From positions 21,704-85,703 of the forward strand of contig CAYYLO010000001.1 in the NCBI GenBank assembly GCA_964472675.1: a DNA stretch of 64,000 nucleotides, read 5' to 3'. A model generated the notes under the pieces. The model saw only the letters and a program-made list of their open reading frames with translations. It did not search any database and was not told where the DNA came from. Source of the DNA: an uncultured Gammaproteobacteria bacterium. GTDB taxonomy: Bacteria > Patescibacteriota > Microgenomatia > UBA8517 > UBA10165. Made by a program: the position numbers and the translations under genes. This document shows positions 12,147 through 64,000 of the stretch, in pieces (within the stretch, counting starts at the first letter, position 1; the number at the start of each line of letters is the position of its first letter).

Positions 12147-13820
12147 TTACTTCCAGGAAAGTAGTTCAAAAGCCACACTGTCGTCCGGTCTAGTTATTTC
12201 CTTGTAAATTCCATCCGGTTGTTTTTGGGAAAGTTCGGCAAAAGGAGGATGTTCAGGATCAAAAACTATCAACGTGCCTTTATTGTGTAAGTCCCCTGCG
12301 GTGGCATCCCTAAAGGTAATATTATCTAGCCCGGAAACCAACCCTACATCACCAAATTGCCCTTCCTGGTAGGTTTTTTTGGAAACTTGCTGATATTTTG
12401 CTGGATCATATTTTTGGAAAAAGAGGAAGAAAATGTACGGCTGGTTATAACTTTGTTGAAAAACAATCTGCTTGTAATCATTTTGTTCTTTAGAAGTCTT
12501 CATAATTGTTTGTTTATACCCGTATTGCCAACCTTTAGCACTGCGCAAAGGATAATGTACCCAATATTGATCAAGAAAATACACGTAATTAATTGCGTAA
12601 ATAGCAAGGTAACAAAGCAGCAAGATTGCAAATTTGCGGCCACGAATTGCTTCAAATACAAATGCCACTCCGCATCCACTAAGTAAAGTTAGTGGAATGA
12701 CAAGATTCAGACTTCGCACACCTTGTATAGTATCTCGAGATAAAGCAGCAGGCAGCGGAGCCAGCAAAAGCCAGAGAAGTACAAACCACTTTGCATTTCT
12801 GTTTTGACTTCTTGCCAAATATAATAATCCTAAAATCAGCAACGGCAAGTCCGCCAATAACAAAACGCCAACGTCAGGCGCTCCGTGTCTAGCATTGGCC
12901 CAATCTCCTTCGAAGAACAAGAATCTTGCCGAGTAGTAATTCGTCCACCGGTACAAAACCCCTCGTAAATTGTTCAATGGCTCAGAATGGTAGAGGATAT
13001 ATTGCCAAGAATTTATACCAACTCCTTCCTGGTTTAAAATGCCAGCCACATATTCAACAGGCCTTCTATAGGAAAAAAAACTAAAGACTGCTAACCTTCC
13101 TGCTTGTCCTTGAAAAACGCTTAAGATTATTGGCAATACCAACACAAACCCCAGAATTAAAACTTGTGCTATCTGTTTTCTGGTAAATCTGCCAAGTCGT
13201 TTGCGATACGCCAACAAGAGAGCTGCCACAACCAACGCAGTACTCAATTTGGCCCCCTGATATGTCCAAAGAGTGAGTGCAAAGAAAATAACTGACAGGT
13301 AAATACTTCTGCCCCCGTCTTTAACAAACCGCAAAAATAAATAGATTCCTGCTAAAGTTAACGTCAAAGAAAGATTGGCTTCCCATGCACCTCTGGAAAA
13401 ATGAACATGCCAAGGAGATATTGCAAGCATCAAGCTTGCTAAAATTTTCAATTTTTCGTTCTTGAATAATTCGCCTACTGAACAATAAACAAGTCCTACA
13501 GCGGCAATACCTGCAATAGCACTGGGAAGTCGCACGGACCACTCTGCCAAGCCCAATATAGCTACGAATGGTACTGTTAGGTAGACATAAAGTCCCGGTT
13601 TCCAATCTCCGAATGACTTAAAAATCAGTGGCAGAAGTTCGCCATACTCATCTCTGCCTGTCTTCAAAATTGAATATGCGTTATACCCCAAAGCCGCCTC
13701 GTCACTGGTTAAATGTGGCGGATTAATATCCAGTTGCCAAAAACGCAACAAGGCAGCAACCAACAAGATTGTGACGAGTAACAGGTGATGAGTTATTGGT
13801 GTAACGAGTTTTCTAATCAT
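12147..13820 (-). CDS. PMT/GT39-family glycosyltransferase (GT-C)
   Basis: LTSDEAALGYNAYSILKTGRDEYGELLPLIFKSFGDWKPGLYVY. ATGA start/stop overlap with the upstream gene at 13817-13820. Confidence 0.85.
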   Translation of the reverse strand: MIRKLVTPITHHLLLVTILLVAALLRFWQLDINPPHLTSDEAALGYNAYSILKTGRDEYGELLPLIFKSFGDWKPGLYVYLTVPFVAILGLAEWSVRLPSAIAGIAAVGLVYCSVGELFKNEKLKILASLMLAISPWHVHFSRGAWEANLSLTLTLAGIYLFLRFVKDGGRSIYLSVIFFALTLWTYQGAKLSTALVVAALLLAYRKRLGRFTRKQIAQVLILGFVLVLPIILSVFQGQAGRLAVFSFFSYRRPVEYVAGILNQEGVGINSWQYILYHSEPLNNLRGVLYRWTNYYSARFLFFEGDWANARHGAPDVGVLLLADLPLLILGLLYLARSQNRNAKWFVLLWLLLAPLPAALSRDTIQGVRSLNLVIPLTLLSGCGVAFVFEAIRGRKFAILLLCYLAIYAINYVYFLDQYWVHYPLRSAKGWQYGYKQTIMKTSKEQNDYKQIVFQQSYNQPYIFFLFFQKYDPAKYQQVSKKTYQEGQFGDVGLVSGLDNITFRDATAGDLHNKGTLIVFDPEHPPFAELSQKQPDGIYKEITRPDDSVAFELLSWK

Positions 13821-16800
13821 TGCTTCTCAAGAATGATAAAAGCCGGATCTCCATTCAAGAAGCGGATAGTTTTCAGTTGCTTAAAATCGGGAGGAAAATT
13901 CCCTGGACTGGTGACGAGAAGAGTTTTACCATCTATCGGTATTTTTAGCCCACTCTCCACCCGCCACTCTCCACCCGCCACTTTTGGCATATCCCAATCG
14001 TTAACAAAATAGAACTTATCAAACCGGTCTATCCAAAACCAATCAGACTGGGCAAACCGCACAAGGTTGGTGTCTTTTTGGTAAGCGGCTGGATCCCAGG
14101 GCCAGTAGAAAAGCAAAAACTCATGCGGTTCGCCATATTTTTTAGTAATAATAAATCGGTCATATTCTCCATAACAAGCTTTTATGTAATCCGCGATATT
14201 TTGATATCCATATTGCCAAGACCAAGAGTAGTTTCTGCTGTAAACAAAGAAGTATTCATACATGTACTTACCCATATTGACAAATAACAATGTGGCGTAA
14301 GCTGTTAATGCGAATGCTTTCCACCTGCGGCTAATTTTTGTTGCTAGCCATATTACCCCAATTGCCGAAATAAGTTGAGGAATAGGCAACATAGAAGCAG
14401 AACGCAAAACTGCAAATTTTTCGTTAGTAATACTTGCAGGAATCGGTGCCAAGAGCAACCACAACAAAACTAACTGATACGCCTTCTCTTTTTTAGTCGC
14501 CCTCCATGCAACCAGTATCAGGCCAATGTAGAAAAAGGGTAAGTTAACCGGATAAAGGAGTCCCCAACCCGGAACGCTAAATTGATATTGCGTACCGCCT
14601 TTAAAAAATAAAAACTGCGGTGAAAAGTAATCCGCATAGTTTTTGGTAAACTTCTCAACAAAGTAAACAGGACGATTGTAGAAAAGACGAGCTAACCCTG
14701 GAGGTAATTTACTTTCCTCGCGCGCATTCACAATGCGGTTTATTGCACCCTGGTCAACCAAAAAAACCCAATTGGCACGTGCCCTTGCCTCAGAATTAGA
14801 CAAGATAAACGGAAGCGGCACAAAAAAAACAGCTAAAATGACAAGGGAAATGATCCCAAGTAAACGTTTGTGTTTGAAAAAATTAAAAAGTTCACGCCGG
14901 TAGATTATAAAAAGGGCAAGCAAAAAAAATGGAGTGAAGATTCTGGTTGTGTGGTAAGAAAAAAGAGTTAGCCCAAAAGCCAAAAACGAAAGCGGAAATT
15001 TGCCATTTACAAAAAGAGCAGCCGCTGTAGTTAAGAAAAACACCGATAAATTTGATTGTAAAACAAACCGCGAAGGGAAAAAGAGCCATGGGTCAATTGC
15101 CACAAAAAATGTGCCAAACAGACTTATGTCTTTCCTTTTAGTAACTCCAAAAAAAACAAAGTAGGATGAAATTATCGTTAAAGTTCCCAAGAGAACATGC
15201 GGCAAGCGGATGGCAAACGCATTAAGACCAAGAAACTTGATAAAAGGTATGGTCAAATAGAGGTTGAGAGGAAGGGGGTAGTCTCCATAGGCTCTAAAAT
15301 TTGTGATCGGAAAGAATTCCCCCCACTCGTCCTGGCCGGTTTTTAAAATAGAGTAAGCATTCCATCCATGACTTACTTCATCCCAGTTTAGACTTGGCGG
15401 TATTTGAGTAATCCCTGCAAACCTTAAAACAAACCCCAACAAGACAATAACTATTAATAACCAATATTTCTTATACACAGTTGAAGAGATCTTTGATCTT
15501 TTATGCCACATATTTTTCTTTACGAAAAACAATAATCCGATCGCTGCCGCAACACTAATAGCATTACCCCAAGTTCTTGCTGGAGTATCAGTAAATCTTA
15601 ATATTGCTTCTTTTTCACCGCTCAGAGCGGGAAGTTGTGCTGTTATTAATCCCAAATCTCCCGAAGGAACAACCGAGTACTCTTTTGATTCTGTAAACAA
15701 ATGCCAACCAGGAAAATAAACTATCGGAAACTGAACTGTGGCAGGTGAAGTAAGTGTTAACTTGTATTTTACCTCATTGCTCTTCTTTAAGACTTGTGCA
15801 CCAAAAAACCTGCCGTCTGCCGAAGGTTGCGAAGGAGCCGGACTTGCCGGAAGTTGGGAAGCTGTTGCAGGCCAATAATCTCCTAAAGATGACGCGGTCT
15901 GTTCTTCCCATTTTTTCCCTGCAAACTGGTCTTTATCTGTAATGTTGTACCACATATCCTCCTTAAAAAAAGAAAAGTTCACAAGGATCACGATGACAAT
16001 AGCAGTTGCACTAATCCACAGAGGAAATCGCCTGGAAACGAACACTATAGCTCCAGAAGCCAGCGCAAAACTGAAGGTTGCGATAGAAAGCCAACGCCAC
16101 GGAAATTGAAAATATGACGTAAATTTGAGGCTTTCCCAAATAGGTGTCGACTTATTGTGTGTTAGAAACAAAGCCAGCCAACCAATTAAAACTAACACCA
16201 AAATGTCTTTAAGTTTTTCTTTTTGGCGAGTTATTAACAGGCATACCAGTGCTATCAAAGGCAATACCCACTGCACTTGCCCCACAGATAAACTTAAATC
16301 ATCTTGAGGACCAAAAAGTGAAGCGCCATACCCCCAAAATCTTGAAATTAAAAGTTGGTTCAATGTGGCAAAATGTGCCCTAAAATCAAAATAACCAATG
16401 GTGATCGATTCCAAGTTTACATATTTGGACTCCGACACCACAGGTAGTAGATAAAATGCACTAAGTGCTAACGCCAAAACCCCTCCACCAACTAGCCAAG
16501 GAATCTTACTGTAGTTTTTCCTTTCCACAATTTTACATCCCAACCATACTCCCAAGAAAAGCCCAAACATTAGAAGCGACAGGTTGTGTGTCAGCAACAG
16601 CAGAGCAAGGCTGACACTAAACCACAAAAGACTTTTGATCTTGCCCCCATGAAGAAAGTTATAAGCAAAGAGCGCAATAAAAGGGAAAAGTGCAAAAGCA
16701 AAAGCTTCGGGCAAAGCTGCCCGAACCCAAACATCAAGAGCTCGATATGGCGCGTATACATAAACCATGCTGCTCACCAATGCCGCATATTTATACGAAG

Positions 16801-17173
16801 TTGAAGAGGAATTCTGATTCTTCTGATTTCCCCAAACCCTTAAAGAGAGCAAATACATACCTAAAGCAGATCCAATAATCGAGAGAATAAACACTACCTT
16901 GGTGGAATCAATAATTTGCATTCCCAGCAAGTGGAATACTTCGCCTACTGCGTAAGGTATTTGCGTGTAAAAGTTAAACAAAGGTTCACCATACCCAAAA
17001 CCAGCGTCGGGAGCCCAGCGACAAGGGATTTGGAAGTCCTTTATACAGCGATCAAACTCAAACAAACGGAATAAATGCGGGTCCTGCATGGAATATATCC
17101 CTGGCCGGAGCATCCTAAAAAAAGCGGGGATTGTGAGAACAACAACAAACAACAAAAAGAAATATTTTCTCAT
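13817..17173 (-). CDS. Fusion protein: N-terminal YfhO-like/PTPS-related GT-C module (about aa 1-554) plus C-terminal PMT/GT39 module (about aa 555-1118)
   Basis: N-half is colinear with the stand-alone 52578..54464 protein (DFQIPCRW...PLFNFY...; C-terminal FPGWHLF ~ FPGWKVF). C-half from MWHKRSK (ATG at 15511) carries LNWDEVSHGWNAYSILKTGQDEWGEFFPI and the full PMT architecture. One uninterrupted 3357-nt ORF. Confidence 0.8.
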   Translation of the reverse strand: MRKYFFLLFVVVLTIPAFFRMLRPGIYSMQDPHLFRLFEFDRCIKDFQIPCRWAPDAGFGYGEPLFNFYTQIPYAVGEVFHLLGMQIIDSTKVVFILSIIGSALGMYLLSLRVWGNQKNQNSSSTSYKYAALVSSMVYVYAPYRALDVWVRAALPEAFAFALFPFIALFAYNFLHGGKIKSLLWFSVSLALLLLTHNLSLLMFGLFLGVWLGCKIVERKNYSKIPWLVGGGVLALALSAFYLLPVVSESKYVNLESITIGYFDFRAHFATLNQLLISRFWGYGASLFGPQDDLSLSVGQVQWVLPLIALVCLLITRQKEKLKDILVLVLIGWLALFLTHNKSTPIWESLKFTSYFQFPWRWLSIATFSFALASGAIVFVSRRFPLWISATAIVIVILVNFSFFKEDMWYNITDKDQFAGKKWEEQTASSLGDYWPATASQLPASPAPSQPSADGRFFGAQVLKKSNEVKYKLTLTSPATVQFPIVYFPGWHLFTESKEYSVVPSGDLGLITAQLPALSGEKEAILRFTDTPARTWGNAISVAAAIGLLFFVKKNMWHKRSKISSTVYKKYWLLIVIVLLGFVLRFAGITQIPPSLNWDEVSHGWNAYSILKTGQDEWGEFFPITNFRAYGDYPLPLNLYLTIPFIKFLGLNAFAIRLPHVLLGTLTIISSYFVFFGVTKRKDISLFGTFFVAIDPWLFFPSRFVLQSNLSVFFLTTAAALFVNGKFPLSFLAFGLTLFSYHTTRIFTPFFLLALFIIYRRELFNFFKHKRLLGIISLVILAVFFVPLPFILSNSEARARANWVFLVDQGAINRIVNAREESKLPPGLARLFYNRPVYFVEKFTKNYADYFSPQFLFFKGGTQYQFSVPGWGLLYPVNLPFFYIGLILVAWRATKKEKAYQLVLLWLLLAPIPASITNEKFAVLRSASMLPIPQLISAIGVIWLATKISRRWKAFALTAYATLLFVNMGKYMYEYFFVYSRNYSWSWQYGYQNIADYIKACYGEYDRFIITKKYGEPHEFLLFYWPWDPAAYQKDTNLVRFAQSDWFWIDRFDKFYFVNDWDMPKVAGGEWRVESGLKIPIDGKTLLVTSPGNFPPDFKQLKTIRFLNGDPAFIILEKQ
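13937..13980. repeat. Tandem 14-mer (cactctccacccgc x2 plus a partial unit) within the PMT-module coding sequence
   Basis: ccactctccacccgccactctccacccgccact; encodes AGGEWRVESG. Confidence 0.6.
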
Positions 17174-18840
17174 TGTGTACTAACTAACCAAATAGCGTCC
17201 TGGCCATTGGGAAATTTGATCTTCTCGACAACATTTGCATTTGAAGAAAACTCGTTAGATTTTCCTATCAAAAGCGTATCTTTTTTGCCAAAAGCCTTAG
17301 AGTCAATACTTGTAAAATTATACTTACCCAAACTGTAATCTCCCAATTGGTCTACAAAGGAACGCCCCTCTGTTTTGTATCTCAGCCAATCTTGAGCTTG
17401 TTTTTGGTAATCTGCCGGATCCCATTTCTTGTAAAAGGCCATATAGATTTGCGGCTCTGATAAAGAGCGGCTAAAGACAACTTGGGAATATCTACTGTCA
17501 ATTGCTGAAGTTAGTTCAACGGCTTGTTTTCTACCATAAAGCATGGCCTGGGCCTGATCCCGCGGCGCGTGGTAATAATAGTCTTCCAAAAAGAATCCTA
17601 AACTCACCAACAATATAGCAATATAACTATATAGCAGTAATTTTTTTGATACTCGCCATTTCTGAGAAATTAAATCCAGCAAAACTAAGGCACCATACGC
17701 AGATAATATTTGTAAGGCCGGCATCATTACCGCCACTCGATTCCCCGCATACCCTGGGCCCTTTGTTAAAGCAGCGGGTATTGGCGCAATCAAAATCCAA
17801 ATTATTAACAATTTAAGGGGTCCCCTTGCCGAGCCTGCAAGGGGACCCCTTGCAAAGATCGACCACAATGAAACAAGTATAAAAGGCAGTTCAACCAGGT
17901 AAAGAACTCCTCTGCCGGGAATCATGCCGTAAGTCCACTCGCCTGCCCCTTGAGTAAACAAAAACTGGGGCGAAAAATAGGAGAGATATCTTTGAGAAAA
18001 TTCCTTAAACACATAAACTAGTTTGTTCGAGAAAATTCTTTCTATAACGTCTGGCACTCCGGCCAAAACTGCCTCATACCGCCTGTCGGCAAGGTTCGCC
18101 CAGTTGTCTGTAGGATTAAAAATTGCAATATCCGATCCGCGGCCTCCCGCCCCAGAAAAAAGCATCGTATAAGCGGCAACGGCAATAAAGACAGCCAACA
18201 CAGCAATAGCTATTCCATACTTCCTTCCCGCCTTAAAGTGCAATAGCAAAGTGCGGCGATCCCACAATAATAAAAGGATAATAAGTGGAGTAAATAATCT
18301 TGCAGAGTGGTAACTAAAGAGATTCAAGCCAAAAGCCAAGGCAGCTACTGCCATCCAACGGGGTTTTTCCAAACCTTTGTAAAACGCCCATACTCCAAGC
18401 GGCATAAAAAATGTCGTCAGGTTTGCCTCGAAAGCGCCGCGGGAAAGTGAAATGTGCCATGGCGATACAGCCAGCAGCCAAGCTGCTAAAATTTCCAATT
18501 TCGATCCGCCGAAGAGCCCTTTAACCATCAAATAAGTGGCGAGTATAGCTAGTGTTCCAAAAACAGCACTAGGGAGTCTCACAGCAAATTCATTAAGTCC
18601 AAATATTGCTACCGAGGGAATTGCTAGATAGGTATATAGCGGAAGTTTATAATCCCCAAAAGACTGCAAAGTTAGAGGAAGAAAGCTACCCCACTGATCT
18701 TTGCCGGTTTTCAAGATTGAGTACGCGTCATAACCAAAAGAGGCCTCATCAGGGGTAAAACCTGCAGGGTGGGAGACAAGGCCAATAAAACGCAAAACAA
18801 AAGCCATCAAAATTATTCCAACCAAGACCACACGGCGCAT
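17170..18840 (-). CDS. PMT/GT39-family glycosyltransferase (GT-C)
   Basis: FTPDEASFGYDAYSILKTGKDQWGSFLPLTLQSFGDYKLPLYTY. ATGA overlap with the downstream gene start at 17170-17173. Contains the palindromic in-frame insert ARGPLAGSARGPL. Confidence 0.85.
   Translation of the reverse strand: MRRVVLVGIILMAFVLRFIGLVSHPAGFTPDEASFGYDAYSILKTGKDQWGSFLPLTLQSFGDYKLPLYTYLAIPSVAIFGLNEFAVRLPSAVFGTLAILATYLMVKGLFGGSKLEILAAWLLAVSPWHISLSRGAFEANLTTFFMPLGVWAFYKGLEKPRWMAVAALAFGLNLFSYHSARLFTPLIILLLLWDRRTLLLHFKAGRKYGIAIAVLAVFIAVAAYTMLFSGAGGRGSDIAIFNPTDNWANLADRRYEAVLAGVPDVIERIFSNKLVYVFKEFSQRYLSYFSPQFLFTQGAGEWTYGMIPGRGVLYLVELPFILVSLWSIFARGPLAGSARGPLKLLIIWILIAPIPAALTKGPGYAGNRVAVMMPALQILSAYGALVLLDLISQKWRVSKKLLLYSYIAILLVSLGFFLEDYYYHAPRDQAQAMLYGRKQAVELTSAIDSRYSQVVFSRSLSEPQIYMAFYKKWDPADYQKQAQDWLRYKTEGRSFVDQLGDYSLGKYNFTSIDSKAFGKKDTLLIGKSNEFSSNANVVEKIKFPNGQDAIWLVSTQ
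17815..17851. repeat. Perfect 15-bp inverted repeat with 7-nt spacer inside a PMT coding sequence
   Basis: aaggggtccccttgc-cgagcct-gcaaggggacccctt; encodes ARGPLAGSARGPL, an ~10-aa insertion relative to the paralogs (e.g. KSPKGW in 10526..12145). Confidence 0.8.
18488..18503. repeat. Additional copy of the GGAAATTGGAAATT motif (complement strand) inside PMT gene 17170..18840
   Basis: aaaatttccaatttcg, encoding SKLEIL; the same 14-mer as at 9081, 9133 and 55974. Confidence 0.65.
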
Positions 18841-34357: not shown

Positions 34358-35233
34358 TTAATTTTTGATATTTGAGTTTCTTTGAAGCTCATAGAGCTTC
34401 GCATAAGTTACAAACCTGCTCCACATTTGATAAACGCCATACAAAATCCCTTCCGTGCCATCCAAAATACCACCCATAACGACCAAACGGTACCACAACT
34501 CTTGTGACATGATTCTTGCAAATCTCCACCACGCCATTGGAGGGTGATTGGCCTTAAAAAGAAGTTTTGCCTCAAAAACTGAATACCTGTTTGTTTTTTC
34601 TATCATGTCCGAAAGAGAATCTTCTTTGTGGTGAATTAGCGCGTTTGTAAGTGTTCCTACTTCCCCATTAATAACCGGTTGTTCATGGAGCTCGCCTTCC
34701 CAGCAAACAAGCGCCTCTTTTTTCATCAGCCGCAAAACATAGTCCGGCCAAAACCCACCATGCTTTAACCACCTTCCAAACACGTGATTTTTGCGGGGTA
34801 TCTTATAAGCGTACAAGGAACTATCAAGTGCACGGGTGGCGGGAGCGGAGGGAGTCCCACCGAGTGACCGCAGGGAGCCTGCGACCGAGGACGTCGGGTG
34901 GGACGAGCTCCCGACAGGACCCGAAGCAGGTGGTTTGACAGAACCTACAATATACTGAATTTCTTTAGCTAACTCTTGGGTCACTTCCTCGTCATAATCA
35001 ATATAAAACAACCAGTCGCCCTGAGCATGTTTTGCCGCTTCGCCGCGCCATACTGCAAAGTTGTTTCCTTTGCTGTTAACAATTTTTGCCCCGTATGTTT
35101 TGGCGATTTTTATTGTGTCGTCCATTGAGCCGGTATCTAAAATCACTATTTCGTCGGCTAGCTTTTTAACAGAGTCTAAACACTGTTCTATTTTGCTTTG
35201 GGCATTTTTGGTAATAACAAGAACGGATAACAT
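34358..35233 (-). CDS. GT2-family glycosyltransferase carrying an in-frame GC-rich low-complexity insertion
   Basis: MLSVLVITKNAQ...ILDTGSMDDT...IDYDEE GT-A core; paralog of 36156..37115 (shared SVKKLADEI). Contains a ~38-aa Ser/Gly/Pro-rich insert (PASGPVGSSSHPTSSVAGSLRSLGGTPSAPA) absent from the paralog. Confidence 0.8.
   Translation of the reverse strand: MLSVLVITKNAQSKIEQCLDSVKKLADEIVILDTGSMDDTIKIAKTYGAKIVNSKGNNFAVWRGEAAKHAQGDWLFYIDYDEEVTQELAKEIQYIVGSVKPPASGPVGSSSHPTSSVAGSLRSLGGTPSAPATRALDSSLYAYKIPRKNHVFGRWLKHGGFWPDYVLRLMKKEALVCWEGELHEQPVINGEVGTLTNALIHHKEDSLSDMIEKTNRYSVFEAKLLFKANHPPMAWWRFARIMSQELWYRLVVMGGILDGTEGILYGVYQMWSRFVTYAKLYELQRNSNIKN
34831..34933. repeat. GC-rich (~70% GC) imperfect-palindromic element, copy A, inserted in-frame in a GT2 gene
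   Basis: About 80% identical to 53829-53952. Arms gggagtcccac (34850-34860) and gtgggacgagctccc (34898-34912) are inverted complements; it encodes the extra peptide that is absent from the paralog. Confidence 0.75.
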
Positions 35234-45105: not shown

Positions 45106-45548
45106 AGAAAATCTCCTGCCTCTCCGCCGCCAATTTCCAATATGTATCGTAGACTTCTTCCCTTACCTTCATACTAAGTTAGAGTACCACACATAAGAAT
45201 CAGCCTCTCAATAGAGTAAAATTACGAAGTTACTTTTATGCCTACAACACACAGGGCGGAGCATGCATGCATTTTTATGATGGATAAAAATTATCAACAA
45301 GAAAATGGGCAAGATTTGGGACATTTGCAACAAAAAATACTTCACTCGAAGCAATCCGCTTGAACTATCCACTTAAGGAAGTGCGAACTTCGCACGTCTC
45401 ATTAAGCGAACTGCTGTAAGTGAAGTATCCGGTCCTGCCCCTACCCAAACGTATGCTTGGAACGCGCGCCGGACGGCGACAATTCGGAAACGGAATCTTT
45501 GTGTTTATATTATACCTCACATAGCAACATGTCACAATATACCAACAC
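45106..45548. promoter_or_regulatory. Long (~440 nt) non-coding region upstream of the AbrB-like/R-M module
   Basis: No convincing ORF (the minus-strand 45365..45799 ORF lacks any motif). Contains hairpin gtgcgaacttcgcac and -10-like TATATTATAC / TACAAT-like hexamers near 45500-45545. Confidence 0.3.
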
Positions 45549-52577: not shown

Positions 52578-54464
52578 TCACATGAAGCGGGTCTTGATAG
52601 TTTTACTAGTTTCTTTTGTTCTTGTTTTGCTAGGACTTTTCGTGGCACGGAAAGGCACAAACGTCACAAGAATTGGGGTAGCAGCAAGCCCTACCCAAGA
52701 AATAAGCGAAATTACATTGCCTACGGTTCTAGCCTCTGTGTTATAAAGACGAGCTGCAACTTCGTGTTCTCCCTTAGACAAGTCAACATGCATCCGCCCC
52801 CACTCGTCCTGGTTTAACAACACAGAGACTTCCTTGCCATCCACAAAAACTTTCCAGCCTGGGAACTTGAAAATGTTTATGCGCACAACGCCATTATCCT
52901 CATCTTGAGCTACTTTGAATTTTGCCCAGTTGGAGCCTTGAGAAGCATCACTAATTTGCCCCTTACCTGAAACTGCCTCGGCAACAGTTTTTTGCGGCGC
53001 TTTGGGAGCAGCTGAAGCATCTTTTGGCAAATAATCGTATATTCCGGCAGTTTGTTGCAAATCCCAGGCAGCACCTGAGAATTTTTCCTGGTCAGTTAAG
53101 GGGCCCATTTTTTCAGGTTTAAAAAACTGCCAGTTCCAACCAATAACCACCGCAATCAAGACAAAAACTACCCACTTGGCTATTTTGGGATACGTCTTGG
53201 TCAATAAAACTGTACTTGTCCCAGCCACAACAGAGAAGGAAAGCACGGCCAAAGTCAGGAAACGCCAGGGAAACTGTACAAAAAGCAGGGGAGGTATTTG
53301 TTGCCAGATAAACGTCGACTTAACATGAGCCATAAAAGTCGCAAACCAACCCGACAAAAAGAAAAACATGGTCACCAGGACCAGTTCATTGTTGATTTTC
53401 CGACGCTTCAGCAACTTCCATCCCAAAAATAAAACTACGACAATTGCCAATATCCAATGAATTTGCCCGACGGGGAAAGCCATCTTGTCATCTGCGTCTG
53501 CCCAGGCGGAGGGGCCATATCCCCAAAAGCGGCTGGTTAAAAGCTGGCGAATATTGGCAAAATGGGCAACATACTCGTAGTAACCTTGTGTTAAAGTCTC
53601 TACATGTACAAGTTTCTGTTCCAAAAAAACCGGCAAAGTAAAAAATGCGCTCAGCCCAAAAGCCCAGGCACCGCTTATTGCCAAATTGGGGACAGACCTC
53701 CAAGCTTTGTATTTTAATATCCAAATTAAAAGCCAGGCTAAAAAGAGGGGAGTGAAAATTAAAACCATAAGATTGTGCGACGTAAGCAACGCGAACCAGG
53801 CTAAGGCCAGAACCAAAAGCCATCTTGACGGGTGGCGTGGGCGGAGGGAGTCCCACTGAGCCCCCGCAGTCTCGCCAAAGGCGGACGAGGAGGTCGAGTG
53901 GGACGAGCCCGCGACAGGACCCGTCATCCCCGTGGCAGGACCCGAAGCAGGCATAGAACTCTTTATTAATCTGTAACCAGACCACAAAATTAGCGGGAAC
54001 CAAACTAGCGACCAGGCCTCATTCATCGCCCCACGCACATAAATATCAACAGAATGATACGGTGCCCAAATATAAAAAGCGGCAGACAAAAGACCGCCAA
54101 GACGCCCAAAGAATTCACGGGCAAAAATATACATGGTTACACCGCTTATTAAGAAAGACAGAAGAAACGTCAGCTTTACAGTCGTTACAAATGAAAATTG
54201 AAAAAGCCTGAATACCTCCCCCACTAAATAGGGGAGAGGCGGATAAAAATTAAAAAGAGGAAAACCGTAACCGTACCCCATATATTGCGTCCAACGGCAG
54301 GGAATTTGAAAGTCAGCAAAACACTTCTCCATCGCCAGTTGCCTCATCATCTGGAGATCATCATGCATTAAAAAATAGCCGGGGCGCAGAAGCCACCAGC
54401 CAGCCAAAAGTCCAAGCCCAAGCACAAGATAAAAATAAGGATCACTACGGCGCAGAAGGTTCAT
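52578..54464 (-). CDS. YfhO-like/PTPS-related GT-C membrane protein carrying an in-frame GC-rich insertion
   Basis: Colinear with the N-half of the 13817..17173 fusion protein (FADFQIPCRW, PLFNFYPPLPY) and with the YfhO C-terminal beta-sandwich (FKFPGWKVFVDG...GEHEVAARLY). Contains a ~45-aa SGPT-rich insert (MPASGPATGMTGPVAGSSHSTSSSAFGETAGAQWDSLRPRHPSRW). Confidence 0.65.
   Translation of the reverse strand: MNLLRRSDPYFYLVLGLGLLAGWWLLRPGYFLMHDDLQMMRQLAMEKCFADFQIPCRWTQYMGYGYGFPLFNFYPPLPYLVGEVFRLFQFSFVTTVKLTFLLSFLISGVTMYIFAREFFGRLGGLLSAAFYIWAPYHSVDIYVRGAMNEAWSLVWFPLILWSGYRLIKSSMPASGPATGMTGPVAGSSHSTSSSAFGETAGAQWDSLRPRHPSRWLLVLALAWFALLTSHNLMVLIFTPLFLAWLLIWILKYKAWRSVPNLAISGAWAFGLSAFFTLPVFLEQKLVHVETLTQGYYEYVAHFANIRQLLTSRFWGYGPSAWADADDKMAFPVGQIHWILAIVVVLFLGWKLLKRRKINNELVLVTMFFFLSGWFATFMAHVKSTFIWQQIPPLLFVQFPWRFLTLAVLSFSVVAGTSTVLLTKTYPKIAKWVVFVLIAVVIGWNWQFFKPEKMGPLTDQEKFSGAAWDLQQTAGIYDYLPKDASAAPKAPQKTVAEAVSGKGQISDASQGSNWAKFKVAQDEDNGVVRINIFKFPGWKVFVDGKEVSVLLNQDEWGRMHVDLSKGEHEVAARLYNTEARTVGNVISLISWVGLAATPILVTFVPFRATKSPSKTRTKETSKTIKTRFM
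53829..53952. repeat. GC-rich imperfect-palindromic element, copy B, inserted in-frame in a YfhO-like GT-C gene
   Basis: Arms gggagtcccac (53846-53856) and gtgggacgagccc (53898-53910); same orientation as copy A; the peptide it encodes is absent from the paralogous module in 13817..17173. Confidence 0.75.
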
Positions 54465-62949: not shown

Positions 62950-63666
62950 ATGGCAAACAGACAAGTCAGGATAGCGGTGGCACTGGATGTGCCATCGCTT
63001 TTGAGCGCCCACCGACTCGTGGCTGAACTCAAGCCACATGTCGACTACTTCAAGGTAGGTCTGCAACTGCTCCACTCAGAAGGAACTCCGAGCGTCCTGC
63101 GTGTTCTACAAGGAGAAGGTGCCCGACTGATGGTGGACTGGAAGCTGCATGACATTCCGGAAACTGTCAAGCTCGCAGCCGAAGCCATCAGACAGTACAA
63201 CGTCGCCTACTTCAACTTGCACGCAACCACCGGACGCGCATCCATTTCTGCCGCCATCACCGCACGGGGTGGAAGCAAGGTCATGGGCGTTACCGTCCTG
63301 ACTTCGCTGGACGATGCGGAATGCACAGAGATCTTCGGGGCAGCAGCAGACATCAAGGTCCCGCAGTTTGCGCGTACTTTCGTGTCGCTCGGCGGCCACG
63401 CCATCATCTGCTCCGCCAAAGAGGCACAGCTTCTGCGCAGCATGCGCGAGCTTGACTCCGCGGAACTCTGGACTCCCGGAATCCGACCCGTCTGGGCTGC
63501 AGCCGGAGACCAGAAGCGAGTGCTCTCGCCCGCCGATGCAGTCCGCGCTGGAGCAGACGTCTTGATCATCGGTCGCCCGATTACTCAACCGCCAGGCGAG
63601 ATCGGAAGCCCCGTCGAGGTCACAAAGCGCATCCGCGCTGAGATCGAGGAAGCGCTAGCCGCTTAG
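62950..63666 (+). CDS. pyrF: Orotidine-5'-phosphate decarboxylase
   Basis: IAVALDVPS and the catalytic VDWKLHDIPETV (DxKxxDIP) motif; strong AAAGGAGG SD 8 nt upstream of ATG 62950 (track shows a TTG at 62944). GC about 60%, versus ~39% for the rest of the window. Confidence 0.85.
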   Translation: MANRQVRIAVALDVPSLLSAHRLVAELKPHVDYFKVGLQLLHSEGTPSVLRVLQGEGARLMVDWKLHDIPETVKLAAEAIRQYNVAYFNLHATTGRASISAAITARGGSKVMGVTVLTSLDDAECTEIFGAAADIKVPQFARTFVSLGGHAIICSAKEAQLLRSMRELDSAELWTPGIRPVWAAAGDQKRVLSPADAVRAGADVLIIGRPITQPPGEIGSPVEVTKRIRAEIEEALAA

Positions 63667-63678
63667 GGAGGAAGTGTC

Positions 63679-64000
63679 ATGGTTATTGCGGCAACAGACA
63701 GATGCTTGCCAGAGAAGGCAGTACTTTTACACCTGAGACAAGCTGGCGCAGTCCTGACAGACGATCACTTCGTCTACACGTCAGGAAGGCACGGCAGCGC
63801 CTACGTCAACAAGGACGCTGTATATCCTGATGCGGGACTTGCCAACGGCCTCTGTATCGACATCGCTCGCCACTTCCAAGATGCAGAAGTGCAAACAGTG
63901 GTGGGAACCGAGCACGGCGGCATCATCCTGCAATTCGCCACTACCTGGAACTTGCGGATGCAGACTGGTCGCCAGATCAGCGGTGTATACGCAGAAAACG
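63679..64000 (+). CDS. pyrE: Orotate phosphoribosyltransferase-like (type I PRTase), 3'-truncated by window end
   Basis: HFVYTSGRHGSAYVNKD parallels PyrE's FTLKSGRKSPYFFN hood region. GGAGGA SD precedes the ATG; GC-rich like pyrF; runs off the window. Confidence 0.55.
   Translation, partial: MVIAATDRCLPEKAVLLHLRQAGAVLTDDHFVYTSGRHGSAYVNKDAVYPDAGLANGLCIDIARHFQDAEVQTVVGTEHGGIILQFATTWNLRMQTGRQISGVYAEN

What the first reader, a model, noticed from the sequence alone, without database searches (positions are those of the whole stretch)
17815..17851. Perfect inverted repeat inserted in-frame inside a PMT gene, encoding a duplicated ARGPL peptide
aaggggtccccttgc / gcaaggggacccctt are perfect reverse complements separated by 7 nt; each arm is itself nearly self-complementary, giving cruciform potential. 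The 37-39 nt replace the short KSPKGW-type segment of the paralogs with FARGPLAGSARGPLK. It is GC-rich against an AT-rich background and shares the gggg(a/t)cccc core style with the larger GC-rich element. It may be a minimal member of the same insertion family or a footprint left by one.
Basis: seen in the sequence. Interest (0 to 1): 0.5.

Follow-up and report, generated by a model that had tools for sequence, protein, structure and literature searches.

The report
Tiny palindromic repeat inside a gene
The perfect hairpin-forming repeat inside this membrane glycosyltransferase gene is real, and it is one copy of an apparently undescribed family of very short GC-rich palindromes that sit, translated and in frame, inside many unrelated genes of ultra-small (CPR/Patescibacteria) bacteria, much as Rickettsia palindromic elements do.

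Summary
Window 17815-17829 and 17837-17851 are perfectly complementary 15-nt arms around a 7-nt loop. They lie in frame in the minus-strand PMT_2/GT-C gene 17170..18840 and encode F-ARGPL-AGS-ARGPL-K. An independent assembly carries the identical sequence.

It is not a private oddity and not a relative of the larger GC-rich elements at 34831 and 53829. The same arms, (GC)AAGGGGWCCCCTT(GC), recur as hairpin dimers with 3-17-nt loops at 20 distinct, unrelated sites. Most are in CPR genomes. Many lie in frame inside real genes (LepA, RecJ, a SufS-like desulfurase, MiaA, a P-type ATPase, a tyrosyl/tryptophanyl-tRNA synthetase-like gene and others).

In the PMT gene only 3 of about 120 orthologs carry it, and they do not form a clade. 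One of them keeps the stem through a compensatory G-C to C-G swap that changes two amino acids. Another has a decayed 3' arm.

Best reading: a REP/REPIN-like or RPE-like passenger palindrome, tolerated in a short inter-helix loop that I infer to be cytoplasmic. The conserved feature is nucleotide pairing, not the peptide. How it spreads is unknown.

Verdict: a new variant of a known kind, of moderate interest.

The parts
17815..17829 (.). Left arm of the hairpin on the + strand, AAGGGGTCCCCTTGC. It is itself a 13-nt palindrome, AAGGGG-T-CCCCTT. On the coding (-) strand it is the 3' arm and encodes the second (A)RGPL.
17830..17836 (.). 7-nt loop, CGAGCCT (AGGCTCG on the coding strand). It encodes part of A-G-S.
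   Evidence: The loop length is the same (7 nt) in the two orthologous copies, and 5/7 positions are identical to L002.
17837..17851 (.). Right arm, GCAAGGGGACCCCTT, perfectly complementary to 17815-17829. On the coding strand it is the 5' arm and encodes the first ARGPL.
17836..17854 (.). Extended 19-nt palindrome TGCAAGGGGACCCCTTGCA, containing the family's 17-nt core GCAAGGGGWCCCCTTGC.
   Evidence: The core was found at 77 loci of the genome collection, 44 of them in DNA below 48% GC where chance predicts almost none.
17812..17853 (-). Codons for residues A330-K343 (ARGPLAGSARGPLK) of the 556-aa protein. In the model these are the last residue of helix 315-330, the loop 331-338, and the first residues of helix 339-351.
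   Evidence: AlphaFold model: mean pLDDT 90.3, with its lowest 10-residue block (67) at residues 331-340.
17170..18840 (-). Host gene: a GT39/PMT_2-family GT-C-fold membrane glycosyltransferase (P0001). It is one of a tandem array of paralogs. Near relatives are named Candidatus Blackburnbacteria.

Best explanation
The repeat is one copy of a dispersed family of very short, GC-rich, nested palindromes.

The unit is (GC)AAGGGGWCCCCTT(GC). Two units in inverted orientation, separated by 3-17 nt, form a 33-47-nt perfect hairpin dimer. The family is concentrated in CPR/Patescibacteria genomes. It occurs between genes and, because the unit has no stop codon in any of the six frames (RGPL, KG[ST]P or xG[DV]PL), also in frame inside genes.

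Here the dimer sits in a short loop between two transmembrane helices of a GT-C glycosyltransferase, which I infer to be cytoplasmic. It is simply translated as ARGPL-AGS-ARGPL. Its two Arg and one Lys fit a positively charged loop of this kind. I regard it as a passenger, that is, selfish or neutral REP/REPIN-like or RPE-like DNA, with no role in the enzyme.

What is maintained is arm-to-arm complementarity at the nucleotide level. I infer this is either because the hairpin is the substrate of whatever copies the element, or because intrastrand template switching (quasipalindrome correction) keeps the arms matched.

Shown: the anatomy, the family, the in-frame occupancy of many genes, the patchy orthologous distribution, the compensatory change and the decay.
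Inferred: mobility, the absence of a function for the host, and the membrane side of the loop.
Unknown: the copying machinery.
For: 1. Same arms at unrelated sites.
- The 17-mer scan of 596 Gb of genomes gave 77 loci. Of these, 44 lie in DNA below 48% GC, where chance predicts 0.013-0.03 hits per Gb.
- An all-against-all blastn of +-200 nt shows similarity confined to the element.

2. Dimers.
- There are 20 distinct dimers (genome scan, metagenome scan and the window).
- All 20 have opposite centre bases (A..T or T..A), so they are true inverted copies and not tandem copies.
- In the one-arm scan, which did not require a partner arm, 10 of 11 distinct dimers had a perfect partner and 1 (L053) had one mismatch.

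3. In frame inside real genes.
- By Pfam: LepA, RecJ, a class I (Trp/Tyr) tRNA-synthetase-like gene, a P-type ATPase, a SufS-like desulfurase, MiaA, a Wzy_C ligase and a GT2 glycosyltransferase.
- Single units lie in Prs, MurT, LeuRS and a flippase.
- Alignments to solved structures show extra residues exactly there: about 10 aa in LepA, 6 aa in RecJ, and a 32-aa gap in SufS.

4. The PMT gene itself.
- Loop-region lengths among 120 orthologs are 24-27 residues. Only P0001, P0003 and P0004 have 30-31.
- These three are not a clade. P0001 is nearest to the element-less P0002 (77.6% identity) and P0003 to the element-less P0008 (74.6%).

5. Nucleotides are conserved, not the peptide.
- Gene-wide nucleotide identity is 0.64-0.65 and third-position identity is 0.43, yet the arms are 27/30 identical.
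- L001 shares 20/20 nt with the window (TTTGCAAGGGGTCCCCTTGC) with no synonymous change.
- L002 has G-C to C-G at one stem pair, changing Gly to Arg and Pro to Arg while keeping 14 base pairs (-28.6 kcal/mol, z = -4.2). This variant is identical in 5 assemblies.

6. Decay. L001 has 3 mismatches, all in one arm, and the fold is lost (z = -1.2). That is what a dispensable passenger should do.

7. Permissive site. The peptide spans the lowest-confidence stretch of an otherwise confident GT-C model, between helices 315-330 and 339-351.
Against: - No transposase, target-site duplication or empty/filled polymorphism was found, so mobility is inferred only from distribution.
- Only one locus occurs in this 64-kb window. 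Copy number in this genome is unknown and may be very low.
- The net length gain in host genes (0-10 aa, apart from the 32-aa SufS gap) is smaller than the element. This fits replacement or conversion better than simple insertion.
- The three orthologous copies share loop length and 5/7 loop bases (WIN vs L002). That argues for one origin, yet the gene tree would then need several losses or lateral patch transfer.
- Exact conservation of a 13-17-nt core across CPR classes is unusual for REP-type repeats, which are normally species-specific. It could instead point to a conserved protein-binding site.
- Retrieval by exact pattern biases the sample toward perfect copies.
Confidence: 0.6

Rival explanations
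1. The palindrome is a binding site for a conserved CPR protein (operator, nucleoid or replication factor, or an uptake or defence signal). Copies inside genes are sites that arose or were fixed because binding is useful or is driven.
For: - The 13-17-nt core is identical across CPR classes (Microgenomates, Paceibacteria and others).
- In Paceibacterota SMAG_U3062 the units lie between operons and after tRNA genes, next to TTATCCACA boxes.
- Six related viral contigs carry an array of GGGGWCCCC palindromes spaced by GTTTTTG, which looks like iterons or operators.
Against: - The density is far too low for an uptake signal: one locus in 64 kb.
- Sites inside LepA, RecJ, SufS and MiaA loops have no obvious regulatory logic.
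- Dimers are always perfect hairpins with variable short loops, which a dimeric DNA-binding protein does not need.
- L001 is decaying.
- This rival is not exclusive of the best explanation, because REPs also bind proteins.
Confidence: 0.15
2. The hairpin is a selected cis-acting RNA or DNA structure for this gene or operon, for example an mRNA stabiliser, an RNase processing site, or a translational pause that helps membrane insertion of the next helix.
For: - A strong fold (-31.6 kcal/mol, z = -4.5) is preserved in L002 through a compensatory double change that costs two amino-acid replacements.
- The arms are more conserved than the rest of the gene.
Against: - About 117 of 120 orthologs, including the closest one (P0002), lack it and show no structure there.
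- L001 has lost the fold.
- There is no U-tract and the terminator scan does not call it. No Rfam family matches.
- The same sequence sits in unrelated genes and in intergenic DNA.
Confidence: 0.12
3. It arose locally: a 24-nt tandem duplication of an ARGPL-coding segment, or correction of a quasi-palindrome by template switching within this gene, unrelated to sequences elsewhere.
For: - The two cores are 24 nt (8 codons) apart, giving ARGPL twice.
- Orthologs with 27-residue loop regions have xRxxL...TRxxP[IV] and the DNA xCAAGG...ACCCT, which resembles one arm.
- Template switching would also explain the compensatory change in L002.
Against: - The arms are identical to a 15-17-mer found at dozens of unrelated loci. 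Chance convergence on a 15-mer is about 1e-9.
- The centre bases are complementary (T..A). That means inverted copies; a tandem duplication would give T..T.
- The three carriers are not a clade.
Confidence: 0.05
4. It is a minimal member, or an excision footprint, of the larger GC-rich hairpin elements at 34831 and 53829.
For: - Both kinds are GC-rich hairpins that lie in frame in glycosylation-cluster genes of the same window.
- They share one 8-mer, GAGCCTGC.
Against: - The large elements contain no GGGGWCCCC.
- The alignment score is reached by 127/500 and 32/500 shuffles.
Confidence: 0.03
5. It is an assembly or sequencing artefact.
For: Perfect short palindromes can arise from chimeric reads.
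Against: - An identical gene and element is in an independent assembly (L097).
- Diverged but homologous copies are present in other samples, and the L002 variant is in 5 assemblies.
- The element is in frame.
- The family is seen in data from many projects.
Confidence: 0.01

Closest known systems
Rickettsia palindromic elements (RPE; Ogata et al. 2000, as summarised in PMC10969869)
   Same: Both are palindromic repeats that insert in frame into unrelated, often essential, protein-coding genes. They are translated as extra peptide in permissive surface regions, and they occur in small genomes of host-dependent bacteria.
   Different: RPEs are about 100-150 bp and belong to Rickettsia. This element is 33-47 nt, built from a 13-17-nt self-palindromic unit, and found in CPR. 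No sequence relationship was tested. The net length gain here is often smaller than the element.
REP / BIME / REPIN repeats, including intragenic REPs (Di Nocera et al. 2013, PMC3733652; Bertels and Rainey's REPIN concept, from my own knowledge)
   Same: Both have short GC-rich palindromic units, which often occur as head-to-head dimers that fold into a larger hairpin (a nested palindrome). Both are found downstream of genes and occasionally inside ORFs, and abundance varies between genomes.
   Different: There is no GTAG or CGTC tag. No RAYT was seen nearby in the intervals inspected. The core is conserved across classes rather than being species-specific. Spacers are much shorter (3-17 nt), and many of the dimers recovered lie inside genes.
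[quoted passage not shown]
   Same: Both have perfect terminal inverted repeats, are non-coding by themselves, and have dispersed copies. One genome carries a ~47-nt version with a conserved 16-17-nt loop in multiple copies.
   Different: This element is far below the usual MITE size. No consistent target-site duplication was seen, and no parent IS with these ends is known.
GC clusters of yeast mitochondrial DNA (from my own knowledge; not checked here)
   Same: Both are short GC-rich palindromic elements in AT-rich genomes that are optional between strains. A GC cluster can sit in frame inside a coding gene (var1).
   Different: The host is an organelle of a eukaryote, the sequences are different, and the mechanism is equally unknown.
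Quasipalindrome correction by intrastrand template switching (from my own knowledge)
   Same: It would explain how a change in one arm is copied to the other arm (L002), and why the centre base flips between orthologs.
   Different: It is a maintenance mechanism, not an origin. It cannot explain identical arms at unrelated loci.

Membership tests
REP / REPIN (GTAG- or CGTC-tagged palindromic repeats) | Short (about 20-40 nt) GC-rich palindromic unit | tested here: met
   The unit is a 13-19-nt palindrome, and in about half of the copies pairing extends 3-6 nt further.
REP / REPIN (GTAG- or CGTC-tagged palindromic repeats) | Units commonly paired in inverted orientation to form a larger hairpin | tested here: met
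   There are 20 distinct dimers, all with complementary centre bases and loops of 3-17 nt.
REP / REPIN (GTAG- or CGTC-tagged palindromic repeats) | Conserved GTAG or CGTC tetranucleotide at one end | tested here: not met
   Among 262 flanks, GTAG/CTAC occurs 9 times and CGTC/GACG 6 times, with no positional conservation.
REP / REPIN (GTAG- or CGTC-tagged palindromic repeats) | Many copies per genome, mainly extragenic | tested here: inconclusive
   There is one locus in this 64-kb window. More than 25 cores occur in nine 8-kb loci of Paceibacterota SMAG_U3062, mostly intergenic. No whole genome could be counted.
REP / REPIN (GTAG- or CGTC-tagged palindromic repeats) | Associated RAYT (Y1 transposase) gene | tested here: inconclusive
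   ORFs between neighbouring copies in L008, L011 and L062 are ordinary genes (ABC transporter, L11, NusG and so on). Genomes were not searched for PF01797.
Rickettsia palindromic elements (RPE) | In-frame occupancy of unrelated protein-coding genes without stop codons | tested here: met
   PMT_2, LepA, RecJ, an aminoacyl-tRNA-synthetase-like gene, a P-type ATPase, a SufS-like gene, MiaA, Wzy_C and GT2.
Rickettsia palindromic elements (RPE) | Length about 100-150 bp encoding a conserved 30-50-aa peptide | tested here: not met
   Length is 33-47 nt. The peptide depends on frame: RGPL, KG[ST]P or xG[DV]PL.
Rickettsia palindromic elements (RPE) | Sequence homology to RPE families | not tested
MITE | Terminal inverted repeats | tested here: met
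   Perfect 15-nt arms.
MITE | Target-site duplication flanking the element | tested here: inconclusive
   Flanks of the 20 dimers show no consistent direct repeat. Several extend the palindrome instead (TTT...AAA, GC...GC). No empty sites were available for comparison.
MITE | Autonomous IS with the same ends | not tested
None was seen in the fetched loci.
Larger GC-rich hairpin element of this window (34831 / 53829) | Sequence similarity or a shared core | tested here: not met
   The large elements contain no GGGGWCCCC. The local alignment is not better than shuffles. The two kinds do not co-occur in other loci.
Intrinsic terminator | GC-rich stem followed by a U-tract | tested here: not met
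   The scan does not call it. The stem is followed by AAAUUGUUAAUAA.
DNA uptake sequence (DUS/USS type) | Very high genomic density (about 1 per kb) | tested here: not met
   Two cores, both at this locus, in 64 kb.

The most novel reading that the evidence does not exclude
CPR/Patescibacteria carry a previously undescribed, lineage-wide family of ultra-short nested-palindrome elements. The 13-17-nt core is conserved across classes, which implies a conserved trans-acting recognition or copying machinery. The elements have colonised essential genes (LepA, RecJ, aminoacyl-tRNA synthetases, MiaA, SufS) in frame. This would be a miniature counterpart of the Rickettsia palindromic elements, and possibly the smallest mobile unit known to be tolerated inside proteins.
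Probability: 0.35. Interest if true: 0.7.

Novelty: new variant of a known kind. Interest (0 to 1): 0.55.

Why it matters
If the family is confirmed, it shows that the streamlined genomes of CPR bacteria still host selfish palindromic DNA, and that this DNA can live inside essential proteins.

- It offers a natural marker of recent DNA turnover and of recombination between co-occurring CPR populations.
- It gives a handle for finding the enzyme or binding protein that recognises a core conserved across CPR classes.
- It warns annotators and structural biologists that short G/P/R-rich loop insertions in CPR proteins can be DNA-level passengers rather than adaptations.
- The compensatory change in the orthologous copy is a clean example of selection, or conversion, acting on DNA/RNA pairing at the expense of protein sequence.

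Tried and rejected
- A peptide-profile search with the 45-aa loop region (A2) returned nothing scorable and cost one protein search.
- A second protein search seeded with P0004 found no closer relatives and no further element-bearing orthologs.
- Literature searches found nothing on CPR, whether by the sequence itself or by topic. They returned only the RPE, REP and MITE literature.
- Rfam gave no family at gathering threshold. The weak E-value hits (miRNA precursors and the like) are generic hairpin matches.
- Terminator reading: rejected, because there is no U-tract.
- DNA uptake signal: rejected on density.
- Tandem-duplication reading: rejected because the centre bases are complementary in all 20 dimers.
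- Kinship with the larger GC-rich elements: rejected.
- Search for a transposase between neighbouring copies in the high-copy Paceibacterota genome: only housekeeping genes.
- Sequence search of P0001 against the PDB found nothing. A structure prediction and Foldseek were used instead.
- Viral contigs: no hairpin dimers, only one phage group with a different array of GGGGWCCCC sites.
- The 'uncultured Gammaproteobacteria' labels on many hit MAGs were taken at face value at first and then rejected. Their Prs is 82-84% identical to that of a Patescibacteria MAG. The L005 LepA scores higher against Thermus and Aquifex EF4 than against E. coli EF4.
Full report
**1. What is in the window**

At 17815-17851 the + strand reads AAGGGGTCCCCTTGC-CGAGCCT-GCAAGGGGACCCCTT.
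- The repeat finder reports two 15-nt arms, 100% complementary and 7 nt apart. This is the only perfect pair among the ten inverted repeats it lists for the 64-kb window.
- Each arm is itself a palindrome around a central T or A. The right-hand one extends to a 19-nt palindrome (17836-17854).
- GGGGWCCCC occurs twice in the window, both times here, against 0.23 expected. Looser versions of the 13-mer appear only at chance level elsewhere.
- The element is 68% GC in a region of about 42% GC.

It lies in frame inside the minus-strand ORF 17170..18840, whose coding strand reads TTT GCA AGG GGT CCC CTT GCA GGC TCG GCA AGG GGA CCC CTT AAA = F-ARGPL-AGS-ARGPL-K. As RNA it forms a 15-bp stem at -31.6 kcal/mol, z = -4.5 against shuffles.

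**2. The host gene and the site**

The ORF is a PMT_2 (GT39-like) protein. It is one of a tandem array of paralogs.
- Its AlphaFold model is confident (mean pLDDT 90.3, pTM 0.90).
- The model matches GT-C enzymes such as STT3/AglB/PglB, ArnT and Pmt.
- Near relatives are named Candidatus Blackburnbacteria, so the window comes from a CPR bacterium of the Microgenomates group.

Residues 330-343 (ARGPLAGSARGPLK) cover the end of helix 315-330, the loop 331-338, and the start of helix 339-351. The 10-residue block 331-340 has the lowest confidence in the model (67).

I infer that this is a short cytoplasmic loop. I counted helices back from the C-terminal soluble domain, which is extracytoplasmic in the solved GT-C enzymes (established knowledge). 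This places the loop on the opposite side from the catalytic face. I did not compute it from coordinates. Orthologs and paralogs have a short K/R-rich segment at this position.

**3. Orthologs**

Among the best 120 homologs, the segment between the two helices (a fixed alignment window) is 24-27 residues long. Only P0001 (the window), P0003 and P0004 have 30-31. A second search seeded with P0004 found no further carriers.

The three carriers are not a clade:
- P0001 is closest to P0002 (77.6% identity), which has FVRRPNKF.
- P0003 is closest to P0008 (74.6% identity), which has VRGKLTRMNPIS.

| Copy | Coding-strand DNA at the site |
|---|---|
| WIN | TTT GCA AGG GGT CCC CTT GCA GGC TCG GCA AGG GGA CCC CTT AAA |
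| L001 (P0003) | TTT GCA AGG GGT CCC CTT GCT GAT TCT GCA AGT AGA CCA CTT AAA |
| L002 (P0004) | TTT GCA AGG CGT CCC CTT GCA GGA TTG TCA AGG GGA CGC CTT ATT AAG |

Gene-wide these sequences are only 64-65% identical, and 43% identical at third codon positions. Even so, L001 shares 20 consecutive nucleotides with the window, without one synonymous change.

L002 differs from the window by G to C in one arm and C to G at the pairing position of the other.
- This keeps a 14-bp stem (-28.6 kcal/mol, z = -4.2).
- It changes Gly to Arg and Pro to Arg.
- The variant is identical in five assemblies from different runs.

L001 has three changes, all in one arm, and no longer folds better than shuffles (z = -1.2). 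Orthologs without the element have no structure there.

So nucleotide pairing, not the peptide, is what is conserved, and it can also be lost. The three copies share the 7-nt loop length, and the WIN and L002 loops share 5/7 bases. This favours a common origin of the copies. With the gene tree, that implies either several losses or lateral transfer of a short patch; repeated gain at one codon is the alternative. I could not resolve this.

**4. The same arms elsewhere**

*Genome scan.* An exact scan of one genome per species (596 Gb) for GCAAGGGGTCCCCTTGC gave 77 loci.
- Thirty-three lie in high-GC DNA, where tens of chance hits are expected.
- Forty-four lie in DNA below 48% GC, where the expectation is only 0.013-0.03 per Gb.

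*Taxonomy of the low-GC hits.* Most of the low-GC loci are labelled Patescibacteria, Paceibacterota, or Curtiss-, Gottesman-, Levyi-, Blackburn-, Kaiser- or Saccharibacteria. Most of the remainder are labelled 'uncultured Gammaproteobacteria', a label I consider unreliable for two reasons:
- Their Prs is 82-84% identical to that of a Patescibacteria MAG.
- The L005 LepA is closer to Thermus and Aquifex EF4 than to E. coli EF4.

A Chloroflexi MAG (4 loci) and a few Dehalococcoidia also carry the core within a longer palindrome, AGCTTYGCAAGGGGTCCCCTTGCRAAGCT.

*Flanks.* An all-against-all blastn of +-200 nt shows that similarity is confined to the element. The sites are not homologous to one another.

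*Dimers.* Many hits have a second arm nearby. A metagenome scan that required both arms added seven more distinct cases.
- In all 20 distinct dimers the two centre bases are complementary (A..T or T..A). These are true inverted copies, never tandem ones.
- Loops are 3-17 nt and unrelated in sequence.
- In the one-arm scan, which placed no requirement on a partner, 10 of 11 distinct dimers had a perfect partner and one had a single mismatch.

**5. Inside genes**

The unit has no stop codon in any frame. It reads RGPL, KG[ST]P or xG[DV]PL.

Dimers lie inside ORFs that Pfam identifies as:
- LepA
- RecJ
- a class I (Trp/Tyr) tRNA-synthetase-like protein
- a heavy-metal P-type ATPase
- a SufS-like cysteine desulfurase
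- MiaA
- a Wzy_C ligase
- a GT2 glycosyltransferase

Single units lie in Prs, MurT, LeuRS and a polysaccharide flippase.

Alignment to solved structures shows unmatched residues exactly at the element: about 10 aa in LepA, 6 aa in RecJ, and a 32-aa gap in SufS. In Prs there is no obvious length change. In most cases the net gain is smaller than the element, so gain may involve replacement rather than pure insertion.

In the one high-copy genome seen (Paceibacterota SMAG_U3062), the units are intergenic. They sit after tRNA genes and between operons, combined with TTATCCACA boxes and a second palindrome type, GGTGTAAGGGGWCCCCTTACACC. No transposase lies between neighbouring copies.

**6. Interpretation**

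The anatomy and distribution are those of REP/REPIN-type or RPE-type palindromic repeats. The unit is short and self-palindromic. Inverted dimers form a larger hairpin. Copy number varies between genomes. Copies are occasionally, and here often, translated within permissive loops of unrelated proteins.

I therefore read the window's element as a passenger copy of such a family. It is tolerated because it is stop-free, keeps the reading frame, supplies Arg and Lys to a loop I infer to be cytoplasmic, and lies away from what I infer to be the catalytic face.

Maintenance of complementarity (L002) can come from selection on the hairpin as the substrate for copying, or from intrastrand template switching. 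The flip of the centre base between orthologs points the same way (L012/L056 have A and L030 has T; L037 has T and L044 has A). The means of spread is not shown. I found no RAYT, no GTAG or CGTC tag, no target duplication and no empty-site polymorphism.

**7. Rivals**

- *Conserved protein-binding site.* This is the strongest alternative, or complement. It would explain the identical core across CPR classes, the intergenic modules next to DnaA-box-like sequences, and an iteron-like array of GGGGWCCCC sites in one phage group.
- *Gene-specific RNA hairpin function.* This is unlikely, because nearly all orthologs lack the element, one copy is decaying, and the same sequence occurs in unrelated contexts. 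It is not terminator-like and matches no Rfam family.
- *Purely local origin.* Excluded by the family.
- *Kinship with the larger GC-rich elements.* Not supported.
- *Artefact.* Excluded.

**8. Comparison with known systems and novelty**

It works like RPEs (in-frame selfish palindromes; PMC10969869) and like REP dimers or REPINs, including intragenic REPs (PMC3733652). It fails defining features of both:
- REP: it lacks the tag.
- RPE: it lacks the size and the conserved peptide.

It also differs in being extremely short and in having a core shared across CPR classes. Full-text searches for the sequence and for the topic found no description in CPR. That library is incomplete, so prior description cannot be excluded.

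I classify it as a new variant of a known kind and of moderate interest. The PMT copy itself is ordinary passenger DNA. The family behind it deserves a proper census.

**9. Caveats**

- Exact-pattern retrieval favours perfect copies.
- Only fragments of genomes (at most 8-20 kb per locus) could be read, so copy numbers per genome are unknown.
- The gene tree is a neighbour-joining tree without support values.
- The membrane side of the loop is inferred.
- MAG taxonomy labels are partly unreliable.

Noticed in passing
window 34831-34935 and 53828-53950: Two copies of a larger GC-rich element, 79% identical over 96 nt. Each lies in frame on the minus strand, one in a GT2 gene (34358..35233, interrupting the Pfam GT2 match) and one in a PTPS_related membrane-protein gene (52578..54464). 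They encode PASGP...GSS(S)H(P/S)TSS-type peptides. Both fold as long hairpins (-52 and -63 kcal/mol), apparently with paired differences between the copies. The element is absent from every other locus fetched. It looks like a separate RPE-like family.
   Followed up: partly
window 45427-45497 (-): An Rfam match above the gathering threshold to DUF3800-IX RNA (41 bits, threshold 36.8).
   Followed up: no
window 62950-64000: GC content jumps to about 58%, from about 41% in the rest of the window. This stretch holds an OMP decarboxylase (pyrF, Pfam E = 1.8e-40) followed by what looks like a phosphoribosyltransferase. It may be horizontally acquired DNA or a chimeric contig end.
   Followed up: partly
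window 10526-30548 (-): A long tandem array of PMT_2/GT-C glycosyltransferase paralogs, 18-35% identical to one another. It includes an 1118-aa fusion with a PTPS_related domain (13817..17173). The arrangement is syntenic with L001, L002 and L093.
   Followed up: partly
L008, L011, L028, L038, L041, L050, L061, L062, L075 (Paceibacterota SMAG_U3062, DASTLQ01): A composite intergenic repeat: CATGCAAGGGGWCCCCTTGCATG, then TTATCCACA (a DnaA-box-like sequence), then GGTGTAAGGGGWCCCCTTACACC. It is found after tRNA genes and between operons, and some copies form 41-nt perfect palindromes.
   Followed up: partly
L038 6190-6230 and L075 6895-6935: A different hairpin repeat, TAAGGGTCCRCCTTCGCC...GGCGAAGGYGGACCCTTA. 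Between the two copies one stem pair has changed on both sides (G-C in one, A-T in the other).
   Followed up: no
L098-L103 (IMG/VR contigs): Six related viral contigs carry an array of GGGGWCCCC-centred palindromes separated by GTTTTTG-type spacers, next to GGGTTCTTGTTCTT repeats. The arrangement looks like iterons or operators.
   Followed up: no
L004, L005, L010, L012-L014, L017, L031, L043, L045, L053, L056, L066, L068, L071, L074, L077: TPA MAGs labelled 'uncultured Gammaproteobacteria' look mislabelled. The Prs of L012 and L056 is 82-84% identical to that of a Patescibacteria MAG (L030). The L005 LepA scores higher against Thermus and Aquifex EF4 than against E. coli EF4.
   Followed up: partly
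L012/L056 vs L030 (Prs gene); L037 vs L044 (LeuRS gene): At orthologous single palindromes the centre base is flipped (A vs T) while everything around it is kept. This is the signature expected if the palindrome inverts, or of a W-constrained centre.
   Followed up: no
L056 and L074 (same MAG, CAYHQC01): The single unit inside Prs and an intergenic dimer directly upstream of an ATG share 31 nt (TCTCTGCAAGGGGTCCCCTTGCAGAAGCTAA), which extends beyond the palindrome. This suggests that copying carries flanking bases along. In the intergenic copy, AAGGGG lies 7 nt before the start codon, where it could act as a ribosome-binding site.
   Followed up: no
L097 and L002 (both from run SRR12113424): The window organism and the organism carrying the compensated variant of the element co-occur in the same sample.
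   Followed up: no
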